Under the pieces are notes generated by a model, which did no database searches, was not told the DNA's origin, and worked only from the letters and a program-made list of their open reading frames with translations. Of a DNA stretch of 64,000 bases, positions 3,796-14,480 are shown piece by piece. Origin of the DNA: an uncultured Actinomycetes bacterium (GTDB lineage: Bacteria > Actinomycetota > UBA4738 > CALAEC01); assembly GCA_964551945.1 (NCBI GenBank), contig CAZKFH010000001.1, forward strand, positions 81,274-145,273. The letters run 5' to 3'. The position numbers and the translations under genes are program-made. Positions within the stretch are counted from its first letter, which is position 1. Each line of letters opens with the position of its first letter.

Positions 3796-4364
3796 CAGCT
3801 ATTTCCTTTCTCGAGCAGAGCCTTGAGGGGGCCAAGGCGCTCGCGCCAGTAGGCCTTCATCCTCTCCGCCGACTTCGCGTCAGGCAGGAGCTCGTGCTCG
3901 ACCGCAACCTGGCTCTTGGTCTTGCCGCTGGCGATGAACGTGACGCTGATCCGGGTGGCGCTGTCCTCCCAGTCGAACTTCGCGGAACGTCCGGGCTGAG
4001 CAGTGCGCTTGCGCAGCTTCGCCCCGGGCAGCCAGCGATTGCGCAGCCTGGTGTCGACGAACGCCTCGAAGAGACGCTCGACGGGAACGTTGACCGTCTT
4101 GCTGGCGCCGACCGTGAACGTGCCGCCGGGCCGAACACCGGCAGGGCGAAGCCCTCGAACCTGCTCGTACTCGACGATCAGCTTCTGCGCCCACCAGTGG
4201 CTGAGATCGTGCTCGGTCTTGAGCCAGTCGGCGATCTCCCGGAACGGCCGTCCCGCGGCACCCCATCCGTCGAGCAGGCCGAACCACTCCTCGCGGTCCC
4301 GGCCGGTCGCTCGCTGCACTCCGGTGGGCTGCGCCTCTCGCATCATCGTGCTGAGCGTATCCAT
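3795..4364 (-). CDS. DUF4287 N-terminal domain fused to SRPBCC (AHSA1/START-like) domain protein
   Basis: Start re-assigned to ATG at 4364, preceded by GGAGGAGG. N-terminal 'W…WxxKLxxEYE' DUF4287 pattern, then an SRPBCC-like C-terminus. Confidence 0.6.
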   Translation of the reverse strand: MDTLSTMMREAQPTGVQRATGRDREEWFGLLDGWGAAGRPFREIADWLKTEHDLSHWWAQKLIVEYEQVRGLRPAGVRPGGTFTVGASKTVNVPVERLFEAFVDTRLRNRWLPGAKLRKRTAQPGRSAKFDWEDSATRISVTFIASGKTKSQVAVEHELLPDAKSAERMKAYWRERLGPLKALLEKGNS

Positions 4365-4440
4365 ACCTCCTCCTCCGCGTCGCCTCCACTGAAGCGACGA
4401 ACGGGAGCGTCCGACTTCGACATCTTGGGGAGGAGACGGA

Positions 4441-5019
4441 TCAGGCGTCGGGTTGCAATCCTGCCAACGTGACGGTGACGAGACGGTGGACCGCCGCCTT
4501 GGTCGGCAGGCCCCTGGCTGCGGCGAGAGAGTGGAGGCAGTAGCTTGCGAGCTCCGCGGGCGCGACGTCCGTGCGGACAACACCGGTGGCAGCTCCCTCG
4601 ATCAGCAGGTCACGAACGATGTTGCGGAGCTGTTTCTCCGCCCGCGCAACCTGCTCGTCTCGATGGAGGAACGAAGCGAGCTCTGAGTCGTGATGCCCGC
4701 GGGTCTTGTGGGAGTTGAGGGCGAAGGCCTCAAGCACGGCCTCGAGCCGGGCCGCAGGGTCCTCGGCTCGATCGCGAACCTCGGCGAGGTGATGGAGGTG
4801 GTGGGAGATCTGATGCTCGTGCCAGGCGAGCAGGATCCCCTCGACGTCGGGGAAGTACTTGTACAACGTCGCTCGGCCGATGCCGGTCTCCTCGGCGATG
4901 CGGGACATCGTGACCGAGAGCAACCCCTGTTCGGCCACGATGGCGGCGGTGGTCTCCACGATCGCGTCGCGTACCTCACGGCGATGCGAATCGATCGTCT
5001 CGGTCCACAGCTTCGGCAC
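4441..5019 (-). CDS. TetR/AcrR family transcriptional regulator
   Basis: N-terminal HTH 'LSVTMSRIAEETGIGRATLYKYF' is the canonical TetR signature. Confidence 0.85.
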   Translation of the reverse strand: MPKLWTETIDSHRREVRDAIVETTAAIVAEQGLLSVTMSRIAEETGIGRATLYKYFPDVEGILLAWHEHQISHHLHHLAEVRDRAEDPAARLEAVLEAFALNSHKTRGHHDSELASFLHRDEQVARAEKQLRNIVRDLLIEGAATGVVRTDVAPAELASYCLHSLAAARGLPTKAAVHRLVTVTLAGLQPDA

Positions 5020-6478: not shown

Positions 6479-6934
6479 GTGAGGTGGGAGGAAAGGCGAG
6501 TCTCGGTTGTCGGACGCGTTGCCGTATGCGTTGTGGCGCTGGCTGGGGTGGGATGTGGCCCGGTCGGCGATGACGATGGCGCATCCGGTCCGCCGACGGC
6601 GGTGAGCCCAACGCCGGTTCGCATCGATCCGCGGTTCGAGGGCATCGCAACCGTCTCCGAGGCGGTCGAGGGGCTCGAACGAACGATCCAGGACGTCTAT
6701 CACCTGCAGGTGATCGATTCTCGCGACGGCCTCCTGCTCCTCGAGAGAGCGGAGGAGATCGAGAACGCGTACAAGCAGGGCAACATCACCGAGGCATTCG
6801 CGGGTCTTCAGGAAGCTCACGCCTTCATCGATGCGAGCGTGGCCCGGGGGCACCCTTCCTCGGAGGAAGGTGCCGGGCAGCTCCATCAGTCCATCAACGT
6901 GATGGGGGCGCTCATCGCGGCGAACCCCCCGTAG
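6479..6934 (+). CDS. hypothetical lipoprotein
   Basis: Signal/lipobox-like 'VVALAGVGC'; no recognisable domain. An antisense ORF overlaps but is less protein-like. Confidence 0.35.
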   Translation: MRWEERRVSVVGRVAVCVVALAGVGCGPVGDDDGASGPPTAVSPTPVRIDPRFEGIATVSEAVEGLERTIQDVYHLQVIDSRDGLLLLERAEEIENAYKQGNITEAFAGLQEAHAFIDASVARGHPSSEEGAGQLHQSINVMGALIAANPP

Positions 6935-6937
6935 GGT

Positions 6938-7489
6938 TCACTTCTTGATCAGGAAGGTCAGGCTGGTTCTCGAACCCACTTCCTGAACGCCGATCTTCTC
7001 CAGCTCGAGGCGTTCGAGCTCGCCGTCGGCAAAGAGTCGCAAGCCACTGCCGAGGATCACAGGCATGATGTCGACATGAAGTTCGTCCGCCAGTCCCGCG
7101 CGCAGGAGCTGGTTCAGGACGTCGACGCCACCGACCACCTGAACGGCCTTGTTCCCCGCCGCAGTCTTCGCCTGAGCGACCGCCGACTCGAGGCCGTCGG
7201 TCACGAAGGTGAACGTCAGCTTGTCGTCCTGTTTCGGGGCGACCTTTGGCGGGTGGTGGGTCAGCACGAAGATCGGGACTTGGAACTCGTAGGTGCCGAC
7301 GAACGAGTCGGGATCTCCCATCTCGAAAGTCCTTCTGCCCATGAGGACGGCACCGGTCTCCTCGATCATCTCTTTCATGTGGGTGGTCTCGCGGAGGTCC
7401 GCGAGGTCCGGATAGAGATCAGCCGCGCCGCTGTGATCGGCGACGAAGCCGTCCAAGGACATCGTCATGCCGACGATCACCTTTGTCAT
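6938..7489 (-). CDS. dihydrofolate reductase-like (RibD C-terminal domain) family protein
   Basis: 'MTMSLDGFVA…GRRTFE…VVGG' pattern of the RibD_C/YwjB reductase family. Confidence 0.75.
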   Translation of the reverse strand: MTKVIVGMTMSLDGFVADHSGAADLYPDLADLRETTHMKEMIEETGAVLMGRRTFEMGDPDSFVGTYEFQVPIFVLTHHPPKVAPKQDDKLTFTFVTDGLESAVAQAKTAAGNKAVQVVGGVDVLNQLLRAGLADELHVDIMPVILGSGLRLFADGELERLELEKIGVQEVGSRTSLTFLIKK

Positions 7490-7492
7490 GGT

Positions 7493-7915
7493 TCAGTCGC
7501 GCACGTGCATGTCGTATCGTTCGAAGAGGTCGGGGCCGGGCGCCTCCCCACGTTCGAGCAGAGAGATGAGCTCGCGCAGGTATGTGCCGAAGTTCATGCC
7601 GGGCGCGTGGATGTTGAGGAAGCGCGCTCGCTCGGGGACGGCGAATGAGTGGAGGGCGCCTGGGGGAGCGACGGCGAACGCGCCGGGGCCCAGCAGGACC
7701 GTCTCGCTCTCCGAGATCGCGACCTCCAGCTCACCTTCGAGAACGTAGAACGCGTCGGTGTGACGCTCGTGCGTGTGGAGCGGGGCCATGGGCGCCGTCT
7801 CCGCCGAATACTCGGTCAGGTGAAGGCCGTGGATGTCCACCTTCACGTCGCGAACGGACGTCCCGCTCGAGAGCGATTCGCCTCCCCCCGGCTGCACCAC
7901 GATCACCTTCTCCAT
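7493..7915 (-). CDS. cupin domain protein
   Basis: Start re-assigned to ATG at 7915 (GGAGGTA RBS). 'HTHERHTDAFYVLEGELEV' matches the cupin motifs. Confidence 0.65.
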   Translation of the reverse strand: MEKVIVVQPGGGESLSSGTSVRDVKVDIHGLHLTEYSAETAPMAPLHTHERHTDAFYVLEGELEVAISESETVLLGPGAFAVAPPGALHSFAVPERARFLNIHAPGMNFGTYLRELISLLERGEAPGPDLFERYDMHVRD

Positions 7916-7947
7916 GGCTCGGTACCTCCTTTGATCCAGGACGAGCG

Positions 7948-10848
7948 CTACGCGTGGGACTCGCGGAGCCGGTCGGACAGGACGCGCATCACCGCGAGAC
8001 TGACGTCCGGTCGCTCGCGAAGGATGCGCTGGAAGCTCGGCTGGTCGAGGCTGAGCGTTCGCACGGCACCGGCGCATTGCAGCGAGGCCATCCTCGCCTC
8101 CTGGCCGATAACGGCCATCTCGCCGACGTACTCGCCGACGGTACGCCTCGCCACCTCCCGCGGCGCCTCGCCGTCATGGCGCACCAGCACCTTGATCTCG
8201 CCCGCCACGACGATGTACATCTCGTCGCCGGCCTCACCCTGCTCGGCGATCACCTCCCCGTCGGGGTAGGCGTGCTCCGAGGCGACTTCGGCGACGTGCT
8301 TGAGGTCCTCGGGCGTCAGGTCCGCGAACAGCGGGACCTTCTTCAGGAAGATGACCCGCTGCAGCAGCGAGAGGGTGGAAAGCGTCTCCACGAGGCTTCC
8401 ATTCAACGCCATCGTGGCGGCCTCGCGCACCAGCCGGTCGGGATCGGACGCGGCCAGCTCCTCCAGGGCCGGGGTCGAATCGGATCCCGCGGCCGCGAGT
8501 ACGGCACACGCTCGCAGCCAGGGGTCCGCTTCCTTCATGAGCTCTGCGATCACCGGTGCGCTGTCGGCGGATGGCGATGCGGCCGTTTCCCAAACCGCCA
8601 GCAAGGGCCGGACGACGTCGGCATCCCCGACGGCTTCCAAGGTCTCGAGCGCGTTCGCTCGTTGTTGCGGGTCCTTGCTGGACAGGTTCTCGAGGGCCGC
8701 ACGCATGGCCAAGGTGTCGCCTTGCCGGCCGGAGGCACGCAGGGCGTTGAGCGCATGCCGCACGGCGCGGTGTCGGACGGCGTGCGCGAGGAGCTCGAGC
8801 CGATCGTCTCCTCCCGAGCTCACCGCGAGCCACAGCCGCTGATAGCGGCTCGCCGAGGTCACCTGATCCAGGGCGTACGAGCGAAGCTCGGCTCGTGACG
8901 GACCCGGGACCGCCGCCAACGCCCGCACGGCTCCGGCTTCGAGCTGCGGCCGTGCCAGGGCGATGACCAGCGCGTCTTCCGCGGAAGCACCAAGCCGAGC
9001 CAGCGCATCCGCGGCGGCGTCGCGGACCACGGCCTCGGGATCCCCGAGCGCCGCGATCAGAGGCTCGATCGCCACGTCGGGCTCGAAGCGCGAGAGCGCA
9101 TCCGCGGCCGTCGCTCGTACCGCCGGAGCTTCGTCCGACAGCGCGCCGATCACGGCTTCCGGTTCCACCCGCGTCTGCCCGAGGATTCGCACCGCCCACG
9201 AGCGCCGCTCCGGATCGGGGTCTCGGGACATCTCGACCAGGAGTGGGATCGCGTCGAGCGCACCCGCCGCGCGAGCCCGGACCTCCGGTTCGGGGTCCTC
9301 TAGCAGGGGCTCGATAGCGCTTGCCACCGACGGGTCCGTGCTCCGCTCGAGGCCTCGCAGGGCCGTTGCTCGGATCTCGGGCGCCGGGTCGGACAGCGCC
9401 GGCACCAGGACGTGCTCGGCATCGGGACCAGAGACCTCCGCGAGGATCTCGAGCGAGACACGGCGAACCGTTGGGTCGGGATCCGTGGCACCGGCGAGCA
9501 CCGCGGCGTTGGCCTCGGCATCGTTGCGGATGCCGCCGAAGGGCTCTTCCTCCAGGCGGAAGACATCCGGGTTGCCGGCTCGCAGGGCTTCGACCAGCGC
9601 GCTTGCGTATGCCCGCCGAGCGCGCCACATCGCCACGACCGCGAGCACCGCGGCGAACGCGCCGATCACGTAAAGCTGATCCGGCTCGAGAACCCGCTCG
9701 GCCAGGATCAGGAGGAGGCCCGACAGGACGATACCGGCTTGGAGCGGCCCGCCGTCCATGAACAGACGCGTCCTGGCGCGTCGCTCCGAAGGCACCACGT
9801 TGAACAGCGCCTGCCACCCGGTGGCCCACACGCCGTTCACCCACACCATCTGCAGGAACCGGAAGCCGATCAGCACCGCGAACGACGTGCTCACGATGAG
9901 CGCCGCGTAGCCGGCGAGGTAGAAGACGGCCAGCATCAGCACCATCGCGAGGACGCCGAACTTCGCGAACAGACGATTCGCCGCCACCACGGAGACCAGG
10001 AGGGCCGCGCCGTTGCTCGCGCCCATGAACAGGCCGAGGAATCCCGCGAGCTGATCGGTCTCCGGGAAGCGAGCGGTCGCGGCACGAGCGAACAACAGGG
10101 CCAGGGTGAAGTACAGGACCGCGAAAAGCACGAGTCCGATCGACATCCATCGCAGGAGGGGCCAACTCCACACGTCCCGGAACCCCTGCGCCATCTGCGA
10201 CCGCACGCCCGGTCCTCGACCACGCCGCTTCCCTCGAGGCGCGACCGGTACGGTCCCGATCAGAGATCGCGCAACGAAGAACGTCGCCACGAGGGCTGCC
10301 GCCCAGAGTAGGAGCAGGTTCTCCGTGTGTAGCCAGCCGGCGAGCGGCCCCGTGGAGAGCCCGCCGACAACGCCGCCGAGGATCAGCCCCGCGCCGTACA
10401 GCGGGAACAGCCGCTTCGCCTGGCGCGTGTCGCTGATCGCGCCCGCCAGCCCCCACGACCCCATGACCTGCACTGTCCAGACGACCATCATCACGAGCCA
10501 CAGGACCGGGTAGAACCACCGAGCGCCGGGGAGCAGCGCGAGCCTCGCCGCGACGAGCGCCGCTGCGAGCGCGAGTGGGAGCCGCGTCAGGAAGCGCGTC
10601 GCCTCACGCGAGAGAAGCGCTCCCATCCCCACCATGACCGCGAACGTGATCGGACCGAGCACGAGGTAGAGGTAGGGGAGGAACTCGGGTCCGTAGCGCG
10701 AGAAGAAGAGGGACTCCACCCCCGCGGAGCCGATGATGGCGCCGGCCATCCCAACGATCATCAGAGTCACCATGCGGAACGCCGTGGCACCCTCGCCGGG
10801 ACGGATCTTCAGTGCGCCTTGCAGCCGGGCCGCAGGGGCTAACGCCAT
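7948..10848 (-). CDS. Npt1/Npt2 (TLC, ATP/ADP-translocase-like) transporter domain fused to HEAT repeats and a C-terminal cyclic-nucleotide-binding domain
   Basis: ~440-aa 12-TM N-terminus. Repeated 'DPxPxVRxxAxxAL' HEAT/PBS-lyase repeats. C-terminal cNMP-binding fold ('FLKKVPLFADL…GEMA'). Confidence 0.7.
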   Translation of the reverse strand: MALAPAARLQGALKIRPGEGATAFRMVTLMIVGMAGAIIGSAGVESLFFSRYGPEFLPYLYLVLGPITFAVMVGMGALLSREATRFLTRLPLALAAALVAARLALLPGARWFYPVLWLVMMVVWTVQVMGSWGLAGAISDTRQAKRLFPLYGAGLILGGVVGGLSTGPLAGWLHTENLLLLWAAALVATFFVARSLIGTVPVAPRGKRRGRGPGVRSQMAQGFRDVWSWPLLRWMSIGLVLFAVLYFTLALLFARAATARFPETDQLAGFLGLFMGASNGAALLVSVVAANRLFAKFGVLAMVLMLAVFYLAGYAALIVSTSFAVLIGFRFLQMVWVNGVWATGWQALFNVVPSERRARTRLFMDGGPLQAGIVLSGLLLILAERVLEPDQLYVIGAFAAVLAVVAMWRARRAYASALVEALRAGNPDVFRLEEEPFGGIRNDAEANAAVLAGATDPDPTVRRVSLEILAEVSGPDAEHVLVPALSDPAPEIRATALRGLERSTDPSVASAIEPLLEDPEPEVRARAAGALDAIPLLVEMSRDPDPERRSWAVRILGQTRVEPEAVIGALSDEAPAVRATAADALSRFEPDVAIEPLIAALGDPEAVVRDAAADALARLGASAEDALVIALARPQLEAGAVRALAAVPGPSRAELRSYALDQVTSASRYQRLWLAVSSGGDDRLELLAHAVRHRAVRHALNALRASGRQGDTLAMRAALENLSSKDPQQRANALETLEAVGDADVVRPLLAVWETAASPSADSAPVIAELMKEADPWLRACAVLAAAGSDSTPALEELAASDPDRLVREAATMALNGSLVETLSTLSLLQRVIFLKKVPLFADLTPEDLKHVAEVASEHAYPDGEVIAEQGEAGDEMYIVVAGEIKVLVRHDGEAPREVARRTVGEYVGEMAVIGQEARMASLQCAGAVRTLSLDQPSFQRILRERPDVSLAVMRVLSDRLRESHA

Positions 10849-12794
10849 GCGACGATGCCGACCCGGACCGGCTCGGCGATGCCCTTCAAAGAAACTTCGC
10901 GAACGGCCGAGAGCTCGACTCCGTCGCCGGCGTCCTTGGCCGTCTCCTCGCTGGCCAGGATCTCGCCGCCTTCGGCCAGCGCGGCGATGCGTGCGGCCTT
11001 GTGGACCTCGACGCCGCCGTAGTCCTGCCCGCGGCGGGTCCCCTTACCGCTGTGGATGCCAATGCGAACCATCAGCGCGAAGCCGTGGGTCCGTCGGTGC
11101 TCCTCGAGCGCTCGCTGCACCGCCACCGCGCACCGCAGCGACGCCGATGCGTCGGGGAACGCGACGAAGAACCCGTCGCCCGTTGGATGCGCCACCTCGC
11201 CGCCGTGAGATGCGAAGAGCGAGCGCAGGGTCCGGTCGTGCCAGGTGAGGAGGTTCTCCCATGCCCCGTCGCCGATCACGCCGATCAGGTCCGTTGACTT
11301 GACGATGTCCGTGAACAGGAACGTCCGTCCCACGCGCTCGGGTTGCTCGACCGAGGAGGCCATCTCGCCCAGCAGCTCGCTTGCCTGCTCGGCTGCCGCC
11401 ACGGCCCCGAGCTGCGTGAACGCCTCCCGGGCGGCGCGAGCCTCTGACACGGCGGCCTCGTCGTTGCCCAGGGCTCGCTGCGCCTTCGCCAGCAGCATGC
11501 GCGTCTCGGCCACCTCGAATGGGGCGTTGACGTTCTGCCACGTCTTCTGCGCCTGCCGGAGGTCCCGGAGGGCCGCATCCGGCTCGCCACGAGCCAGCAG
11601 CACGGCGCCGCGCGCGTGCGCGGCGATGGCGTGGATGGGCTCGCTCTGGTACTCGCCGATGATCGTGTCGAGCTCGTCTGTGGCGGCGGTCGCCGTCTCG
11701 AGGTCGTCTCCGGCGAGCGCTATCTCGGTTTGGGCGGCGAGAAGTCGTACCCGCAGGCAGTGGTTCCCGCGACTCTCGGCCAATGCCTGATCGATCCCGG
11801 CGGCTGCCGCTTGGACCTTCCCCTGGGCCAGCCGCAACAACGACGTGCCGGGCTCGGCGTCGTGGCCGTACTGGTGCGCGCGTGCGTACGCCTCCTCCGC
11901 CTCGACGAAGTCGCCGAGTCGCCGACGCACCTCGCCGATCTCGTGGTAGGCGGGGCCGAGGCCGACCATGAAATTGAACCGAGGCAGCTCCTCACACGCG
12001 AGGCGGGCCTCGTGCTCCGCCTCACTCAACGAACCCCGAAGCCGCATGAGCTCGGCCTTGTGGATCCGGCACACACCGGGAAACGCGGGCACTCCTTGGC
12101 GTTCGGTCCATCGCAAGGTTGCCTCGGTCCACTCGGCCGCTCGTTGGTAGTCACCGAGCTTCGAGCAGATGCCGATCATTCCGCAGTAGACGTATCCCGC
12201 GGCCTGAGGCTCGAGCTCGCCACCGACGACGGCGACCATCGCCTCGTCGAGGAGTTTCATGCCCTCCTCGACCCTCCCAAGGAGGCAGAGTGCACTTCCC
12301 TTGTCGTGGAGGCACATGCCCGCGAGGTCCCGGTCCCCGGTTGTGCCCGCGAGCTCGATCGCCTCGTCGTATGCAGCGATCGCGGCCTCGAAGTCCGACG
12401 CGAACCAGCTCATGAGTCCTCGCAGCCACAACAGCCACCCGTTCACGGGCCACGAGGGGTCCTCCTCGGCCAGGCGTTGCGCCTTGGCCGCCCATCCTTG
12501 CGACTGCGGGCCCGCTGTCCGCATCGCGTGCTGCTGGCTGATCCGGAACGCCGACATGGCGGCAGCAGGGCGGTTGTCCTCGTCGAGGTAGCCGCGGTAA
12601 GCCCGTTCCAGGAGGTCGAGGGTCTCCTCCGGGTGCTCGCTCCAGTAGGCCGCGGAGGCCAGCAGCTCGAGACCCTCGCCGTTCAGGGCACCGGCCTTGT
12701 CCGCCTGCGAGAGCGCCTCGTACGCTTCGCCCCAGGCGTGGCGGTCCAGCGCATCCCGGCCGATCGCGACCGGGTCGTCCGTGTTGGTAGCCAT
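10839..12794 (-). CDS. TPR-repeat regulator with C-terminal class III adenylate/guanylate cyclase domain
   Basis: C-terminal 'FLFTDIVKSTDL…GDGFFVAFP…VRIGIHSG' are class III cyclase catalytic motifs. The stop overlaps the downstream gene's start by 10 nt. Confidence 0.8.
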   Translation of the reverse strand: MATNTDDPVAIGRDALDRHAWGEAYEALSQADKAGALNGEGLELLASAAYWSEHPEETLDLLERAYRGYLDEDNRPAAAMSAFRISQQHAMRTAGPQSQGWAAKAQRLAEEDPSWPVNGWLLWLRGLMSWFASDFEAAIAAYDEAIELAGTTGDRDLAGMCLHDKGSALCLLGRVEEGMKLLDEAMVAVVGGELEPQAAGYVYCGMIGICSKLGDYQRAAEWTEATLRWTERQGVPAFPGVCRIHKAELMRLRGSLSEAEHEARLACEELPRFNFMVGLGPAYHEIGEVRRRLGDFVEAEEAYARAHQYGHDAEPGTSLLRLAQGKVQAAAAGIDQALAESRGNHCLRVRLLAAQTEIALAGDDLETATAATDELDTIIGEYQSEPIHAIAAHARGAVLLARGEPDAALRDLRQAQKTWQNVNAPFEVAETRMLLAKAQRALGNDEAAVSEARAAREAFTQLGAVAAAEQASELLGEMASSVEQPERVGRTFLFTDIVKSTDLIGVIGDGAWENLLTWHDRTLRSLFASHGGEVAHPTGDGFFVAFPDASASLRCAVAVQRALEEHRRTHGFALMVRIGIHSGKGTRRGQDYGGVEVHKAARIAALAEGGEILASEETAKDAGDGVELSAVREVSLKGIAEPVRVGIVAWR

Positions 12795-12905: not shown

Positions 12906-14480
12906 TCAGGAGTCGAGCGCCCTCGTCGTCGCCGTCGATCCCATCCGCATGGAGCGGTCGAACACCACGTAGCGAGCCCGGCCGTCCTCCTTCGCCCTAT
13001 AGAGGGCTATGTCCGCGGCGCGGACGAGCTCGTCGGGGCTCTCGTCGGCCCGTTTGCCCACGGCGATCCCGATGCTCGTCGTCACGACGACCTCACCTGC
13101 ATCGAGAACCATGGGTTCGGCGATCGCCTGTAGGAGCCGCCCCCCGATGACGGGGACCTCATCCTCGCTCCGGAGATCCTCGAGCAGGATGACGAACTCG
13201 TCCCCGCCGAATCTCGCGGGGGTATCGACCTCCCGCACCACGCCCCGGATGCGTTCCGTCATGTGCCGGAGCACGCTGTCTCCCGCCTCATGTCCCAGGG
13301 TGTCGTTGATCACCTTGAACCGGTCGAGGTCGAGGAATGCGACCGCGACGGTTCCCGGGCGTCGCGCCGATCGGGCGAGAGCCTGCTTCAGCCGATCCAT
13401 GAACAGCGTCCGGTTGGCGAGACCGGTCAGTTGATCGTGGAGCGCTCGCCGAATCAGCTCCTTCTCTGCTCGATCGCGCGCGCTCAGATTCTCACGGCGT
13501 TCGGCGACGACGGCGGCGAGGAGGAAGCTCGAGAGCGCCGCGCTGGCGTTGAAGACTTGCAGCGTCACCATCTTGTCCGCCAGGCCGGCCCCGGCGAAGG
13601 GACCGGTTGCGTCCAGGGCGGCCCAGATCGCACCGCCGGAGGCGACCAGAACGGCCAACGTGGCTCCCCGTTGGCCGAAGCGCCAGGCGGCCCACGCCAG
13701 GAGCGGGAACACCAGGTACTGGATCGGGAGCTGGCTCCGGAAGACGAGGTAAGTGGTCGCCGCCAGCAGCAGGGCGAGAGAGATGACCTCGATCCGGCGA
13801 GGCCACGGAACCGTCTTGCCTCGCGGCCGCCATCGCGCCAGGGTGAGCAGGAGCGGCGCGAAGACGAGCACGCCCATCGCGTCGCCGGCCCACCAAACCA
13901 GCCAGGTGGCGAGGAACGCCATCTGCGGGATCGCGTCCGAGAGCAATAGCGTCGAGGTTCCGGCCGTGGCGCTCACGGTCATTCCGAGCAGCGCTCCGAG
14001 GAACACGATGGCCATGGCATCGCGAAGCCTCTGGAGATCCGGCCTGAATCCGGTGACGCGCAGCAGCGACACGGCAACCAGCGGGGCGGCGGTGTTTCCG
14101 GCGGCGATGCTTGCAGCGGCGAGCGCCGTGGGCCCGATGGGGAGGTTCACCAGGAACGCGCTGACCGCGATGCCGGGCCACATGCGCCGCCCGAACAGGA
14201 GCATCCCCGCTACGGCGATTCCGGTCGGGGGCCAGATCGGCGTGACCTGATCCCGAACCAGGGCGAGGCGCAGACTCAGGCGAGCAGCGAAGTAGTAGAC
14301 CACCGCGAGAGCGGCCATCTTCGCGATGTCCACCAGAATCCTGCGAGCGGGAGAGTCGCGCGTGGGAAGGGCGGCTGCCGTAGGGGCGGACCGTTCCTCA
14401 GCAGTGCGGTTCGGGCTCACGGCTCCACATTCCTCGAGGGGGCGGTGCGATCGAAGCATCAGCTTCGGGTTGGGATCCAT
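12906..14480 (-). CDS. MASE1 membrane sensor domain fused to GGDEF diguanylate cyclase
   Basis: Start re-assigned to ATG at 14480 ('MDPNPK…'). ~300-aa polytopic N-terminus, then 'RFGGDEFVILL' GGDEF active site with the RxxD I-site region. Confidence 0.75.
   Translation of the reverse strand: MDPNPKLMLRSHRPLEECGAVSPNRTAEERSAPTAAALPTRDSPARRILVDIAKMAALAVVYYFAARLSLRLALVRDQVTPIWPPTGIAVAGMLLFGRRMWPGIAVSAFLVNLPIGPTALAAASIAAGNTAAPLVAVSLLRVTGFRPDLQRLRDAMAIVFLGALLGMTVSATAGTSTLLLSDAIPQMAFLATWLVWWAGDAMGVLVFAPLLLTLARWRPRGKTVPWPRRIEVISLALLLAATTYLVFRSQLPIQYLVFPLLAWAAWRFGQRGATLAVLVASGGAIWAALDATGPFAGAGLADKMVTLQVFNASAALSSFLLAAVVAERRENLSARDRAEKELIRRALHDQLTGLANRTLFMDRLKQALARSARRPGTVAVAFLDLDRFKVINDTLGHEAGDSVLRHMTERIRGVVREVDTPARFGGDEFVILLEDLRSEDEVPVIGGRLLQAIAEPMVLDAGEVVVTTSIGIAVGKRADESPDELVRAADIALYRAKEDGRARYVVFDRSMRMGSTATTRALDS

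What the first reader, a model, noticed from the sequence alone, without database searches (positions are those of the whole stretch)
6938..12794. cAMP signalling operon: TPR-adenylate cyclase, then Npt/TLC-like transporter-HEAT-cNMP-binding protein, then cupin, then RibD-C reductase
Four co-directional minus-strand genes have overlaps or gaps of 3-33 nt (the cyclase stop overlaps the transporter start by 10 nt). A class III cyclase is encoded immediately upstream of a 966-aa protein. That protein combines a nucleotide-transporter-like 12-TM domain, HEAT repeats and a C-terminal cyclic-nucleotide-binding domain. This pairs a second-messenger writer with a membrane-protein reader in one transcript. 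The cupin and DHFR-like genes suggest a small-molecule output.
Basis: partly seen in the sequence, partly recalled or inferred. Interest (0 to 1): 0.55.

Follow-up and report, generated by a model that had tools for sequence, protein, structure and literature searches.

The report
Cyclase paired with cNMP-sensing NTT-like transporter
An uncultured soil actinobacterium encodes a cyclic-nucleotide-making enzyme immediately before, and overlapping, a membrane transporter-like protein that carries its own cyclic-nucleotide sensor; the protein type was already described in 2017, but the enzyme-sensor pairing recurs in many relatives and offers a first functional handle on this uncharacterised transporter family.

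Summary
Four minus-strand genes lie at 6938-12794 with a 10-nt overlap, a 32-nt gap and a 3-nt gap. They encode a TPR + class III cyclase (651 aa), a 966-aa membrane protein with HEAT repeats and a C-terminal cNMP-binding domain, a cupin and a RibD_C protein.

The membrane domain does not hit Pfam TLC. A family profile does match the solved ATP/ADP translocators (E about 2e-6) and nothing else significantly. An AlphaFold model (pLDDT 89) has 12 TM helices, and its best PDB matches are those same NTT structures.

The NTT-HEAT-cNBD architecture was published by Major et al. (2017); its function is unknown.

New here: class III cyclase genes of several architectures and in all three orientations directly flank this gene. 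This holds for 17/30 actinobacterial and 6/50 Chloroflexota relatives, and for single Dormibacterota and Planctomycetaceae-labelled MAG contigs. The pairing is frequent but not obligate. TPR-cyclase relatives also sit beside stand-alone cNBD genes.

The cupin and RibD_C genes are found in none of about 160 related loci, so the "small-molecule output" idea is unsupported.

Best reading: a local cNMP (probably cAMP) writer-reader module gating an NTT-like transporter of unknown substrate. It is a new member of a known kind, of moderate interest.

The parts
11355..12794 (-). N-terminal TPR-rich region (about residues 1-480) of the 651-aa cyclase; presumed sensor or protein-interaction module
   Evidence: Pfam TPR_12 3.4e-12, TPR_1, TPR_2, TPR_8 and TPR_14. 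Conserved at 42-68% identity over its full length in orthologues.
10839..11339 (-). Class III nucleotidyl cyclase catalytic domain (residues about 486-651, stop included). Active-site set is D-H-D-D-H-R.
   Evidence: PF00211 30.6 bits, above the 21.9 cut-off. Closest solved structures are Ma1120 (4wp3, E 2.8e-31) and Rv1900c/LipJ (1ybt, E 3.3e-18). The catalytic columns are conserved in all TPR-cyclase orthologues.
10839..10848 (-). 10-nt overlap of the cyclase stop with the transporter start (ATGGCGTTAG), suggesting translational coupling
   Evidence: Read directly from the sequence.
9559..10848 (-). 12-TM MFS-fold, NTT-like membrane domain (residues 1 to about 430) of the 966-aa protein
   Evidence: No Pfam hit. 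The family profile matches solved NTTs at E 1.7e-6 and 2.1e-6. AF2 model pLDDT 89.3 with 12 TM helices. Foldseek top three are 9j3n, 9j3m and 9j3l, TM 0.70-0.77.
8359..9531 (-). HEAT-repeat solenoid (residues about 440-830), cytoplasmic linker or scaffold
   Evidence: HEAT_2 E 1.1e-39 in 5 stretches, HEAT 1e-27, HEAT_EZ 2e-12. alphaRep and HEAT PDB hits.
7969..8346 (-). C-terminal cyclic-nucleotide-binding domain (residues about 835-960)
   Evidence: PF00027 57.3 bits. PKA regulatory subunit hits at E about 1e-21. The cassette GEMAVIGQEARMAS keeps G, E and R, which are conserved across 67 relatives.
7493..7915 (-). Cupin_2 protein (140 aa), with RBS AAAGGAGG; probably co-transcribed but not a conserved partner
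   Evidence: Pfam; sequence; absent from all related loci.
6938..7489 (-). RibD_C / DHFR-like reductase (183 aa), 3 nt after the cupin; not a conserved partner
   Evidence: PF01872 4.8e-22; absent from related loci.
6922..6939 (.). GC-rich hairpin at the 3' end of the gene string, between convergent genes; candidate terminator
   Evidence: Consensus scan only.
12906..14318 (-). Upstream same-strand MASE1-GGDEF diguanylate cyclase gene (470 aa), separated by a 111-nt gap; not a conserved neighbour
   Evidence: Pfam MASE1 1.2e-51 and GGDEF 3.7e-45; gene call; found in no related locus.

Best explanation
This is a local cyclic-nucleotide writer-reader module.

The writer is a soluble class III cyclase. 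Its activity is presumably controlled through a 480-residue TPR domain, and it makes a cyclic nucleotide, most likely cAMP.

It is an inner-membrane protein whose 12-TM domain is a distant relative of NTT/TLC nucleotide transporters. A cytoplasmic HEAT solenoid links that domain to a C-terminal cNMP-binding domain.

Ligand binding to that domain is proposed to shift the HEAT linker and switch transport on or off, so that flux of a still unknown, probably nucleotide-like, substrate follows the cyclase's input signal.

What is shown: the gene layout, the domain identities, conservation of the catalytic and ligand-binding residues, and the recurrent genomic pairing.

What is inferred: the product (cAMP), actual binding, the direction of regulation, and the transported substrate.

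The cupin and RibD_C genes ride on the same transcript in this organism but are not part of the conserved module.
For: - Layout: a 10-nt stop/start overlap.
- Cyclase identity: PF00211 above its cut-off. The closest structures are the active adenylyl cyclase Ma1120 and Rv1900c (Ma1120 biochemistry in PMC4215837).
- Cyclase residues: both metal Asp, the substrate Asp and the transition-state Arg are kept. His replaces Asn exactly as in Rv1900c. The D-H-D-D-H-R set is found in 9 of the 10 TPR-cyclase genes next to an NTT gene, the window's included; L010 has Gln at the second position.
- cNBD: Pfam 57 bits, with G/E/R of the cassette conserved in 67 relatives.
- Membrane domain: an NTT relative by profile and by fold.
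- Synteny counts: a cyclase gene abuts the NTT-HEAT-cNBD gene in 17/30 Actinomycetota loci, or 11/14 when both flanks are visible, and in 6/50 Chloroflexota loci.
- Enrichment: 37 cyclase domains lie within 3 kb against 12.8 expected from the 3-8 kb density, P = 3e-8. The 64-kb window holds only this one cyclase.
- Variety: partners appear in co-directional, divergent and convergent orientations. Their architectures are TPR-CYC, CYC-STAND NTPase-TPR in one to three tandem copies, Ad_Cy_reg-CYC, and a short 277-aa cyclase.
- Reciprocal view: TPR-CYC relatives are next to NTT-HEAT-cNBD genes in 6 loci and near stand-alone cNBD genes in 5 loci. This fits a cNMP-writer role.
Against: - The pairing is facultative. 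Most Chloroflexota relatives lack an adjacent cyclase, and 8 of 13 informative close TPR-cyclase relatives lack an adjacent transporter.
- The substrate-specifying Lys is His, so the product is not certain.
- The cassette has Met where Ser, Thr or Ala usually follows the Arg.
- The membrane domain fails the Pfam TLC model and is only 12-13% identical to solved NTTs. Generic MFS transporters score only slightly lower, so nucleotide transport is an extrapolation.
- No experimental data exist for any NTT-HEAT protein.
- There is no transcript evidence for the operon.
Confidence: 0.62

Rival explanations
1. The NTT-like domain transports the cyclase's own product. It would be a cAMP (or other cNMP) exporter or importer, with the cNBD acting as a feed-forward valve that opens when the cytoplasmic level rises. 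This would terminate the signal or release it to the outside.
For: The domain is related to nucleotide carriers. It shows tight and recurrent linkage to cyclases rather than to metabolic genes. A free-living soil actinobacterium has little obvious use for ATP/ADP exchange with the environment (inference). Mycobacteria are reported to secrete cAMP (abstract of PMC3938503, seen); to my knowledge the exporter has not been identified.
Against: Nothing in the sequence speaks to the substrate. No NTT characterised so far is known, to my knowledge, to carry cyclic nucleotides. Many family members have no neighbouring cyclase.
Confidence: 0.12
2. The adjacency has no dedicated functional meaning. The transporter's cNBD reads the global cAMP pool made by many cyclases. 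Cyclase genes, which are numerous in these phyla, simply land nearby.
For: The pairing is absent from most Chloroflexota loci and from most TPR-cyclase relatives. Actinobacterial genomes often hold many class III cyclases (title and abstract of PMC2447327).
Against: There is a roughly three-fold excess of cyclase domains within 3 kb even against a background inflated by tandem arrays, P = 3e-8. Different cyclase architectures and all three orientations recur in MAGs labelled as four phyla. A stop/start overlap occurs here, and gaps of 9-13 nt occur in L162 and L163.
Confidence: 0.1
3. The membrane domain no longer transports anything. It would be an anchor or sensor, with the HEAT solenoid as a cAMP-controlled scaffold that recruits partners, possibly the TPR domain of the cyclase, to the membrane.
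For: HEAT and TPR are protein-interaction modules. The domain falls below the Pfam TLC threshold.
Against: The 12-TM domain is the best-conserved part of the protein, with invariant Arg, Gln and Asn residues and the DTRQAKRLFPL motif shared with NTTs. The confident MFS-type model has no degenerate helices.
Confidence: 0.08
4. It is a Pycsar-like anti-phage module. A sensor-coupled cyclase (TPR or STAND NTPase) would make a cNMP on infection, which opens a membrane effector that drains nucleotides and aborts infection.
For: The logic matches: cyclase plus cNBD-membrane protein. Partners in relatives are STAND NTPase-TPR fusions, often in tandem arrays. The cNBD and one partner cyclase give domain-level hits to PycTIR and PycC models.
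Against: The window cyclase hits no PADLOC model, and the other hits are generic domain similarity. The NTT-HEAT-cNBD protein is widely conserved, and in this ranked set its sequence identity to the window falls roughly in step with the MAGs' taxonomic labels, unlike mobile defence genes. No other defence or mobile-element gene appears among the called neighbours. Pycsar effectors are small proteins with 2-4 TM helices (own knowledge).
Confidence: 0.04

Closest known systems
NTT-HEAT-cNBD fusion proteins (Major, Embley & Williams 2017, Genome Biol Evol, PMC5381601)
   Same: The domain order is the same: an NTT-like 12-TM domain, then HEAT repeats, then a C-terminal cNBD in one polypeptide. The size is similar. 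Relatives of the window protein carry PF03219 + HEAT + PF00027.
   Different: That survey listed only one actinobacterial NTT sequence and reported no linkage to cyclase genes; it only speculated about cAMP. Here the gene is translationally coupled to a TPR-cyclase. The pairing recurs in MAGs labelled Actinomycetota, Chloroflexota, Dormibacterota and Planctomycetaceae. No member has been characterised.
Canonical NTT/TLC nucleotide transporters (Arabidopsis NTT1, Chlamydia NTT1/Npt1; PDB 9j3j-9j3o; Pfam PF03219; TC 2.A.12)
   Same: They share a 12-TM fold and are the top Foldseek matches (TM 0.70-0.77). They are the only significant profile hits among PDB sequences. The WG.A...AK+F.PLFG motif is shared.
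   Different: Identity is only 12-13%, with no Pfam TLC hit for this sequence. The canonical proteins lack HEAT and cNBD domains. The substrate and exchange mode here are unknown.
Mycobacterial class III cyclases Ma1120 and Rv1900c (LipJ)
   Same: They have the closest catalytic domains (E 2.8e-31 and 3.3e-18). The residue after the substrate-Asp motif is His in place of the canonical Asn, exactly as in Rv1900c. Ma1120 is active with Ala at that site.
   Different: Here the domain is C-terminal to a 480-residue TPR region rather than free-standing or fused to a lipase-like domain. His replaces the substrate Lys, where Rv1900c has Asn and Ma1120 has Lys.
Cyclase-STAND NTPase-TPR proteins of actinobacteria (for example M. 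tuberculosis Rv0386, Rv1358 and Rv2488c; own knowledge)
   Same: The second type of cyclase found next to NTT-HEAT-cNBD genes in relatives has the same N-terminal cyclase + NB-ARC/AAA + TPR order.
   Different: No LuxR-type HTH was seen in the ten relatives scanned; one fragmented downstream gene in L166 has a weak HTH_77 hit. The window's own cyclase has the reverse order, TPR then cyclase, and no NTPase.
Other cNBD-regulated membrane transport proteins (CNG/HCN-type channels such as MloK1; the cNBD-fused MFS proteins Rv3239c and Rv3728 of M. tuberculosis, own knowledge)
   Same: A cytoplasmic C-terminal cNBD is attached to a membrane transport domain. The cNBD is clearly similar to that of MloK1.
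   Different: The membrane domain is different, and a 390-residue HEAT solenoid lies between the gate and the sensor.
Pycsar (cyclase + cNMP-activated membrane effector)
   Same: A two-gene logic in which a class III-like cyclase sits next to a cNBD-bearing membrane protein.
   Different: There is no PADLOC system-level match. The effector here is a conserved 966-aa transporter-like protein, not a small TM effector, and there is no defence-island context.

Membership tests
Class III nucleotidyl cyclase (PF00211) | Pfam Guanylate_cyc match above the gathering score | tested here: met
   30.6 bits against a 21.9 cut-off, residues 491-638. PDB Ma1120 E 2.8e-31.
Class III nucleotidyl cyclase (PF00211) | Two metal-binding Asp residues | tested here: met
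   FTDIV and GDG align with those of Ma1120 and Rv1900c. They are conserved in 35/37 and 36/37 neighbouring cyclases.
Class III nucleotidyl cyclase (PF00211) | Adenine-specifying Lys / Asp pair | tested here: inconclusive
   The Asp is kept (GQDY). The Lys is replaced by His (EVAHPTGDG), where Rv1900c has Asn. The product is therefore not certain.
Class III nucleotidyl cyclase (PF00211) | Transition-state Asn / Arg pair | tested here: inconclusive
   The Arg is kept. Asn is replaced by His, identical to Rv1900c. Ma1120 is active with Ala at this site (PMC4215837).
Class III nucleotidyl cyclase (PF00211) | Cyclase activity | not testable with these tools
   Needs an enzyme assay.
NTT / TLC nucleotide transporter (PF03219, TC 2.A.12) | Pfam TLC match | tested here: not met
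   There is no Pfam hit for residues 1-439 even at E<=10, and none on the full protein. Relatives at 40-50% identity do carry PF03219.
NTT / TLC nucleotide transporter (PF03219, TC 2.A.12) | Detectable sequence homology to characterised NTTs | tested here: met
   The profile of 20 family members gives AtNTT1 (9j3j) E 1.7e-6 and Chlamydia NTT1 (9j3n) E 2.1e-6. The only other hit has E 0.35. The match covers profile positions 105-316 only.
NTT / TLC nucleotide transporter (PF03219, TC 2.A.12) | 12-TM fold closest to NTT structures | tested here: met
   AF2 pLDDT 89.3 with a 6+6 helix arrangement. Foldseek ranks 9j3n, 9j3m and 9j3l first, TM 0.70-0.77. Generic MFS proteins follow at 0.58-0.69.
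NTT / TLC nucleotide transporter (PF03219, TC 2.A.12) | Nucleotide-binding residues and transport activity | not tested
Transport needs an experiment.
NTT-HEAT-cNBD fusion clade (Major et al. 2017) | NTT domain, HEAT repeats and cNBD in this order in one protein | tested here: met
   The same order is found in nearly all complete relatives.
NTT-HEAT-cNBD fusion clade (Major et al. 2017) | Phylogenetic placement inside the published monophyletic clade | not tested
   No tree with the published sequences was built. Placement is inferred from shared architecture and from homologues annotated TLC + HEAT.
Cyclic-nucleotide-binding domain (PF00027) | Pfam match and the phosphate-binding cassette Gly-Glu ... 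Arg | tested here: met
   57.3 bits against a 27.5 cut-off. In GEMAVIGQEARMAS, the G, E and R are conserved in 67 relatives.
Cyclic-nucleotide-binding domain (PF00027) | Ligand identity (cAMP, cGMP or other) | not testable with these tools
   The residue after the Arg is Met, which is not diagnostic.
Single operon of four genes | Same strand, short gaps, no internal terminator | tested here: met
   A 10-nt overlap and gaps of 32 and 3 nt. The consensus scan finds hairpins inside coding sequence only, plus one after the last gene. Transcript evidence was not testable.
Single operon of four genes | All four genes conserved together | tested here: not met
   Cupin and RibD_C are absent from 160 related loci. 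Only the cyclase-transporter pair recurs.
Pycsar anti-phage system | Matches to PycC and a Pycsar effector model as a system | tested here: not met
   The window cyclase has no PADLOC hit. The transporter hits PycTIR models only through its cNBD.

The most novel reading that the evidence does not exclude
The recurrent cyclase partner would mean that the whole NTT-HEAT(-cNBD) family comprises cNMP-gated nucleotide carriers. That family includes the uncharacterised proteins of Chlamydia trachomatis, cyanobacteria and oomycetes. In this clade the cargo would be the cyclic nucleotide itself, making this a dedicated, self-regulated cAMP exporter. To my knowledge no such bacterial exporter has been identified, including for cAMP-secreting actinobacteria such as mycobacteria.
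Probability: 0.1. Interest if true: 0.75.

Novelty: new member of a known kind. Interest (0 to 1): 0.4.

Why it matters
NTT-HEAT fusion proteins are widespread. According to Major et al. 2017 they occur in cyanobacteria, Chlamydia trachomatis, oomycete pathogens and many soil bacteria, and none has been characterised. That paper flags them as possible drug targets.

Cyclase genes of several unrelated architectures have repeatedly come to lie next to the cNBD-bearing form. This is the first comparative evidence that the cNBD is fed by a dedicated local cyclase. It also yields a simple two-gene system, cyclase plus transporter, that can be expressed together to find both the ligand and the cargo.

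The analysis also removes a false lead: the cupin and reductase genes are not part of the module.

Tried and rejected
- Pfam on the isolated membrane domain at E<=10 gave no hit. NCBIfam gave only sub-threshold domain-level hits.
- PADLOC gave only generic cNBD and cyclase-domain similarity, so a known defence system was rejected.
- The Rfam gathering scan and the tRNA scan of the whole window found nothing. The promoter scan found nothing, and terminator-like hairpins are not above the shuffle expectation.
- Cupin, RibD_C and MASE1-GGDEF were searched as conserved partners with phmmer in 160 loci. Pfam was also run on the ORFs downstream of the closest relatives. None was found.
- Literature: no paper in the held library links HEAT + cNBD + cyclase + nucleotide transporter. 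Only three papers mention NTT-HEAT, and none is functional.
- The NTT cryo-EM paper and the Rv1900c structure paper are not held. NTT substrate-pocket residues therefore could not be mapped, and the Rv1900c residue roles rest on the alignment plus my own knowledge.
- One search, on 'His402', was wasted on unrelated papers.
- The idea that the TPR-cyclase is dedicated to the transporter was rejected. Its family is much larger, and most members lack the transporter nearby.
Full report
**Observation**

The region holds four minus-strand ORFs at the stated coordinates:
- 10839-12794, 651 aa
- 7948-10848, 966 aa
- 7493-7915, 140 aa. The longest ORF runs to 8077, but the ATG at 7915 has an AAAGGAGG ribosome-binding site.
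- 6938-7489, 183 aa

The cyclase stop and the transporter start share ATGGCGTTAG, a 10-nt overlap. The next two junctions are gaps of 32 nt and 3 nt. An identical public contig (Logan assembly of run SRR6868922) carries the same four gene calls.

The nearest relatives are uncultured Actinomycetota MAGs, at most 72% identity over the membrane domain.

**Domains**

Pfam gives the following:
- Cyclase gene: several TPR families plus Guanylate_cyc, 30.6 bits against a 21.9 cut-off.
- 966-aa protein: HEAT_2 (E 1.1e-39) and cNMP_binding (57.3 bits against 27.5).
- Third gene: Cupin_2.
- Fourth gene: RibD_C.

The N-terminal 439 residues of the 966-aa protein hit no Pfam family, even at E<=10. The relationship is still real at a deeper level:
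- 134 homologues of this domain were found. Many at 40-50% identity carry PF03219 and/or MFS_1 and are named Npt1/Npt2 family nucleotide transporters.
- A profile of 20 of them (A2) hits, among all PDB sequences, only the Arabidopsis and Chlamydia ATP/ADP translocators at E about 2e-6.
- An AlphaFold2 model (pLDDT 89.3, pTM 0.87) shows twelve TM helices in a 6+6 arrangement.
- The three best Foldseek matches of that model in the PDB are the same NTT structures (TM 0.70-0.77), ahead of generic MFS transporters.

**Is the cyclase likely active?**

The closest solved structures are Ma1120 (E 2.8e-31) and Rv1900c/LipJ (E 3.3e-18). The alignments show the following:
- Both metal-binding Asp residues are present.
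- The substrate Asp and the transition-state Arg are present.
- The adenine-specifying Lys is His; Rv1900c has Asn at this site.
- The transition-state Asn is His, exactly as in Rv1900c.

Ma1120 is an active adenylyl cyclase with Ala at that last position (PMC4215837). The D-H-D-D-H-R set is found in 9 of the 10 TPR-cyclase genes that sit next to an NTT gene, the window's included; L010 has Gln at the second position. This argues for selection on catalysis. The product is probably cAMP, but that is not proven.

**Is the cNBD likely functional?**

It matches PKA regulatory subunits at E about 1e-21. It keeps the Gly-Glu...Arg phosphate-binding cassette, which is conserved in 67 relatives. The residue after the Arg is Met, which does not indicate which nucleotide is bound.

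**Comparison with what is known**

Major, Embley & Williams (2017, PMC5381601) already described NTT-HEAT and NTT-HEAT-cNBD fusions. They found them to be a monophyletic, widely distributed bacterial clade that also occurs in oomycetes. The function is unknown, and they speculated that the cNBD might bind cAMP from an adenylate cyclase.

Only three papers in the held library mention NTT-HEAT, and none is functional. No held paper links these proteins to cyclase genes. The protein architecture is therefore not new.

**Conserved neighbourhood: the main new result**

A genome scan with the membrane-domain profile returned 80 loci from Actinomycetota and Chloroflexota MAGs. Nearly all complete genes have the NTT-HEAT-cNBD order and are 950-1020 aa long.

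A cyclase HMM built from the first hits shows class III cyclase genes abutting the transporter gene:
- 17 of 30 Actinomycetota loci, or 11 of 14 where both flanks are at least 2.7 kb.
- 6 of 50 Chloroflexota loci.

The partners vary in architecture and orientation:
- TPR-cyclase: co-directional upstream in L010, L011, L014 and L021, as in the window; divergent in L008, L009, L013 and L016; convergent in L075.
- N-terminal cyclase-STAND NTPase-TPR: present in one to three tandem copies, on either side and in either orientation.

More distant relatives looked up individually add further cases:
- An Ad_Cy_reg-cyclase lies 13 nt upstream of an NTT-cNBD protein that lacks HEAT, in a Dormibacteraeota MAG.
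- A 277-aa cyclase lies 9 nt upstream of an NTT-HEAT gene in a MAG labelled Planctomycetaceae.
- A cyclase-AAA_16 gene follows the transporter gene in L165. In L166 the downstream gene is an AAA_16-TPR protein, preceded by a 139-aa ORF with no Pfam hit. Both are long-read contigs with fragmented gene calls.

Cyclase domains are about three times denser within 3 kb of the transporter gene than at 3-8 kb: 37 observed against 12.8 expected, Poisson P = 3e-8. By locus the counts are 26/80 against 8/80. This holds even though the far zone is inflated by tandem arrays. The 64-kb window contains no other cyclase.

**Reciprocal test**

A metagenome scan with a TPR-cyclase alignment (A3) returned 80 loci. 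An NTT-HEAT-cNBD gene is adjacent in six: L082, L085, L086 and L089 co-directional, and L094 and L140 convergent.

Eight of the thirteen informative closest relatives lack an adjacent transporter gene. Five other loci carry stand-alone cNBD genes of about 140 aa next to or within about 2 kb of the cyclase.

The TPR-cyclase family is therefore a general cNMP writer that pairs with different readers. The transporter pairing is frequent but facultative.

**Genes that do not belong**

Cupin, RibD_C and the upstream MASE1-GGDEF gene have no counterpart in any of the 160 related loci. Pfam on the ORFs downstream of the closest relatives shows nothing similar. In this organism they are probably co-transcribed, given the short gaps, an RBS, and a hairpin only after the last gene. 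The 'small-molecule output' interpretation has no comparative support.

**Mechanism**

The best-supported model is as follows. An unknown input acts through the TPR domain and activates the cyclase. The cyclic nucleotide binds the cytoplasmic C-terminal cNBD. The HEAT solenoid then transmits the change to the NTT-like domain and modulates transport of an unknown, probably nucleotide-like, substrate.

Gene layout, domain identity, residue conservation and synteny are shown. Product, binding, direction of regulation and cargo are inferred.

Four rivals remain:
- The cargo is the cyclic nucleotide itself, in a self-regulated exporter.
- The adjacency is fortuitous.
- The domain is a scaffold rather than a transporter.
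- It is a Pycsar-like defence module. PADLOC gives only domain-level similarity, the window cyclase hits nothing, and the conservation pattern argues against this reading.

**Verdict**

This is a new actinobacterial member of a published but uncharacterised protein family. It adds a new and useful observation: dedicated class III cyclases recur next to it. Interest is moderate.

Noticed in passing
window 12906-14318 (-): A MASE1-GGDEF diguanylate cyclase gene lies 111 nt upstream on the same strand. A c-di-GMP writer therefore sits next to the cNMP module. It is not conserved in related loci. The longest ORF (932 aa, to 15704) over-extends the 470-aa gene call.
   Followed up: partly
L003 2-7995, L004 80-7995, L010 3-7995: Tandem arrays of two or three paralogous cyclase-STAND NTPase (NB-ARC/AAA)-TPR genes, about 880-910 aa each, lie directly upstream of the NTT-HEAT-cNBD gene. 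In L010 they lie together with a TPR-cyclase gene.
   Followed up: partly
L101 5995-6906, L105 5852-6787, L116 4298-5170, L143 3571-4443, L146 1579-1998: Stand-alone cNBD genes of about 140 aa lie next to or within about 2 kb of TPR-cyclase paralogues that lack a neighbouring transporter; four of the five loci have a divergently transcribed pair. They look like alternative readers for the same cyclase family.
   Followed up: partly
L162 4761-8298 (Dormibacteraeota MAG DASSLL010000011.1): A variant without HEAT repeats: NTT(TLC)-cNBD, 765 aa. It is preceded, with a 13-nt gap, by a 408-aa Ad_Cy_reg + Guanylate_cyc protein.
   Followed up: no
L005 about 4236-4970 (+): A calcineurin-like metallophosphoesterase (Metallophos) domain lies just downstream of the NTT-HEAT-cNBD gene. 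It could be a cNMP phosphodiesterase of the Rv0805/CpdA type. It was seen in one locus only.
   Followed up: no
L027 5006-8689, L041 10960-14613, L019 3-2573: Some partner cyclases carry an N-terminal double zinc-ribbon (DZR / Zn_Ribbon_1) before the cyclase-AAA_16-TPR modules.
   Followed up: no
L164-L167: In several long-read metagenome contigs, the NTT-HEAT gene lies next to 2-oxoacid dehydrogenase complex and lipoyl synthase-like genes. In these contigs the gene is fragmented, probably by frameshifts. The recurrent context is unexplained.
   Followed up: no
window 6922-6939: A GC-rich hairpin (GAACCCCCCGTAGGGTTC) sits exactly between the RibD_C stop and the end of a convergent 151-aa ORF (6479-6934, +). 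It may be a bidirectional terminator.
   Followed up: no
window 7916-8077 (-): The mechanical ORF list extends the cupin gene 162 nt upstream into the transporter's 3' end. The extension is Arg/Pro-rich translation of the other frame and is not coding.
   Followed up: yes
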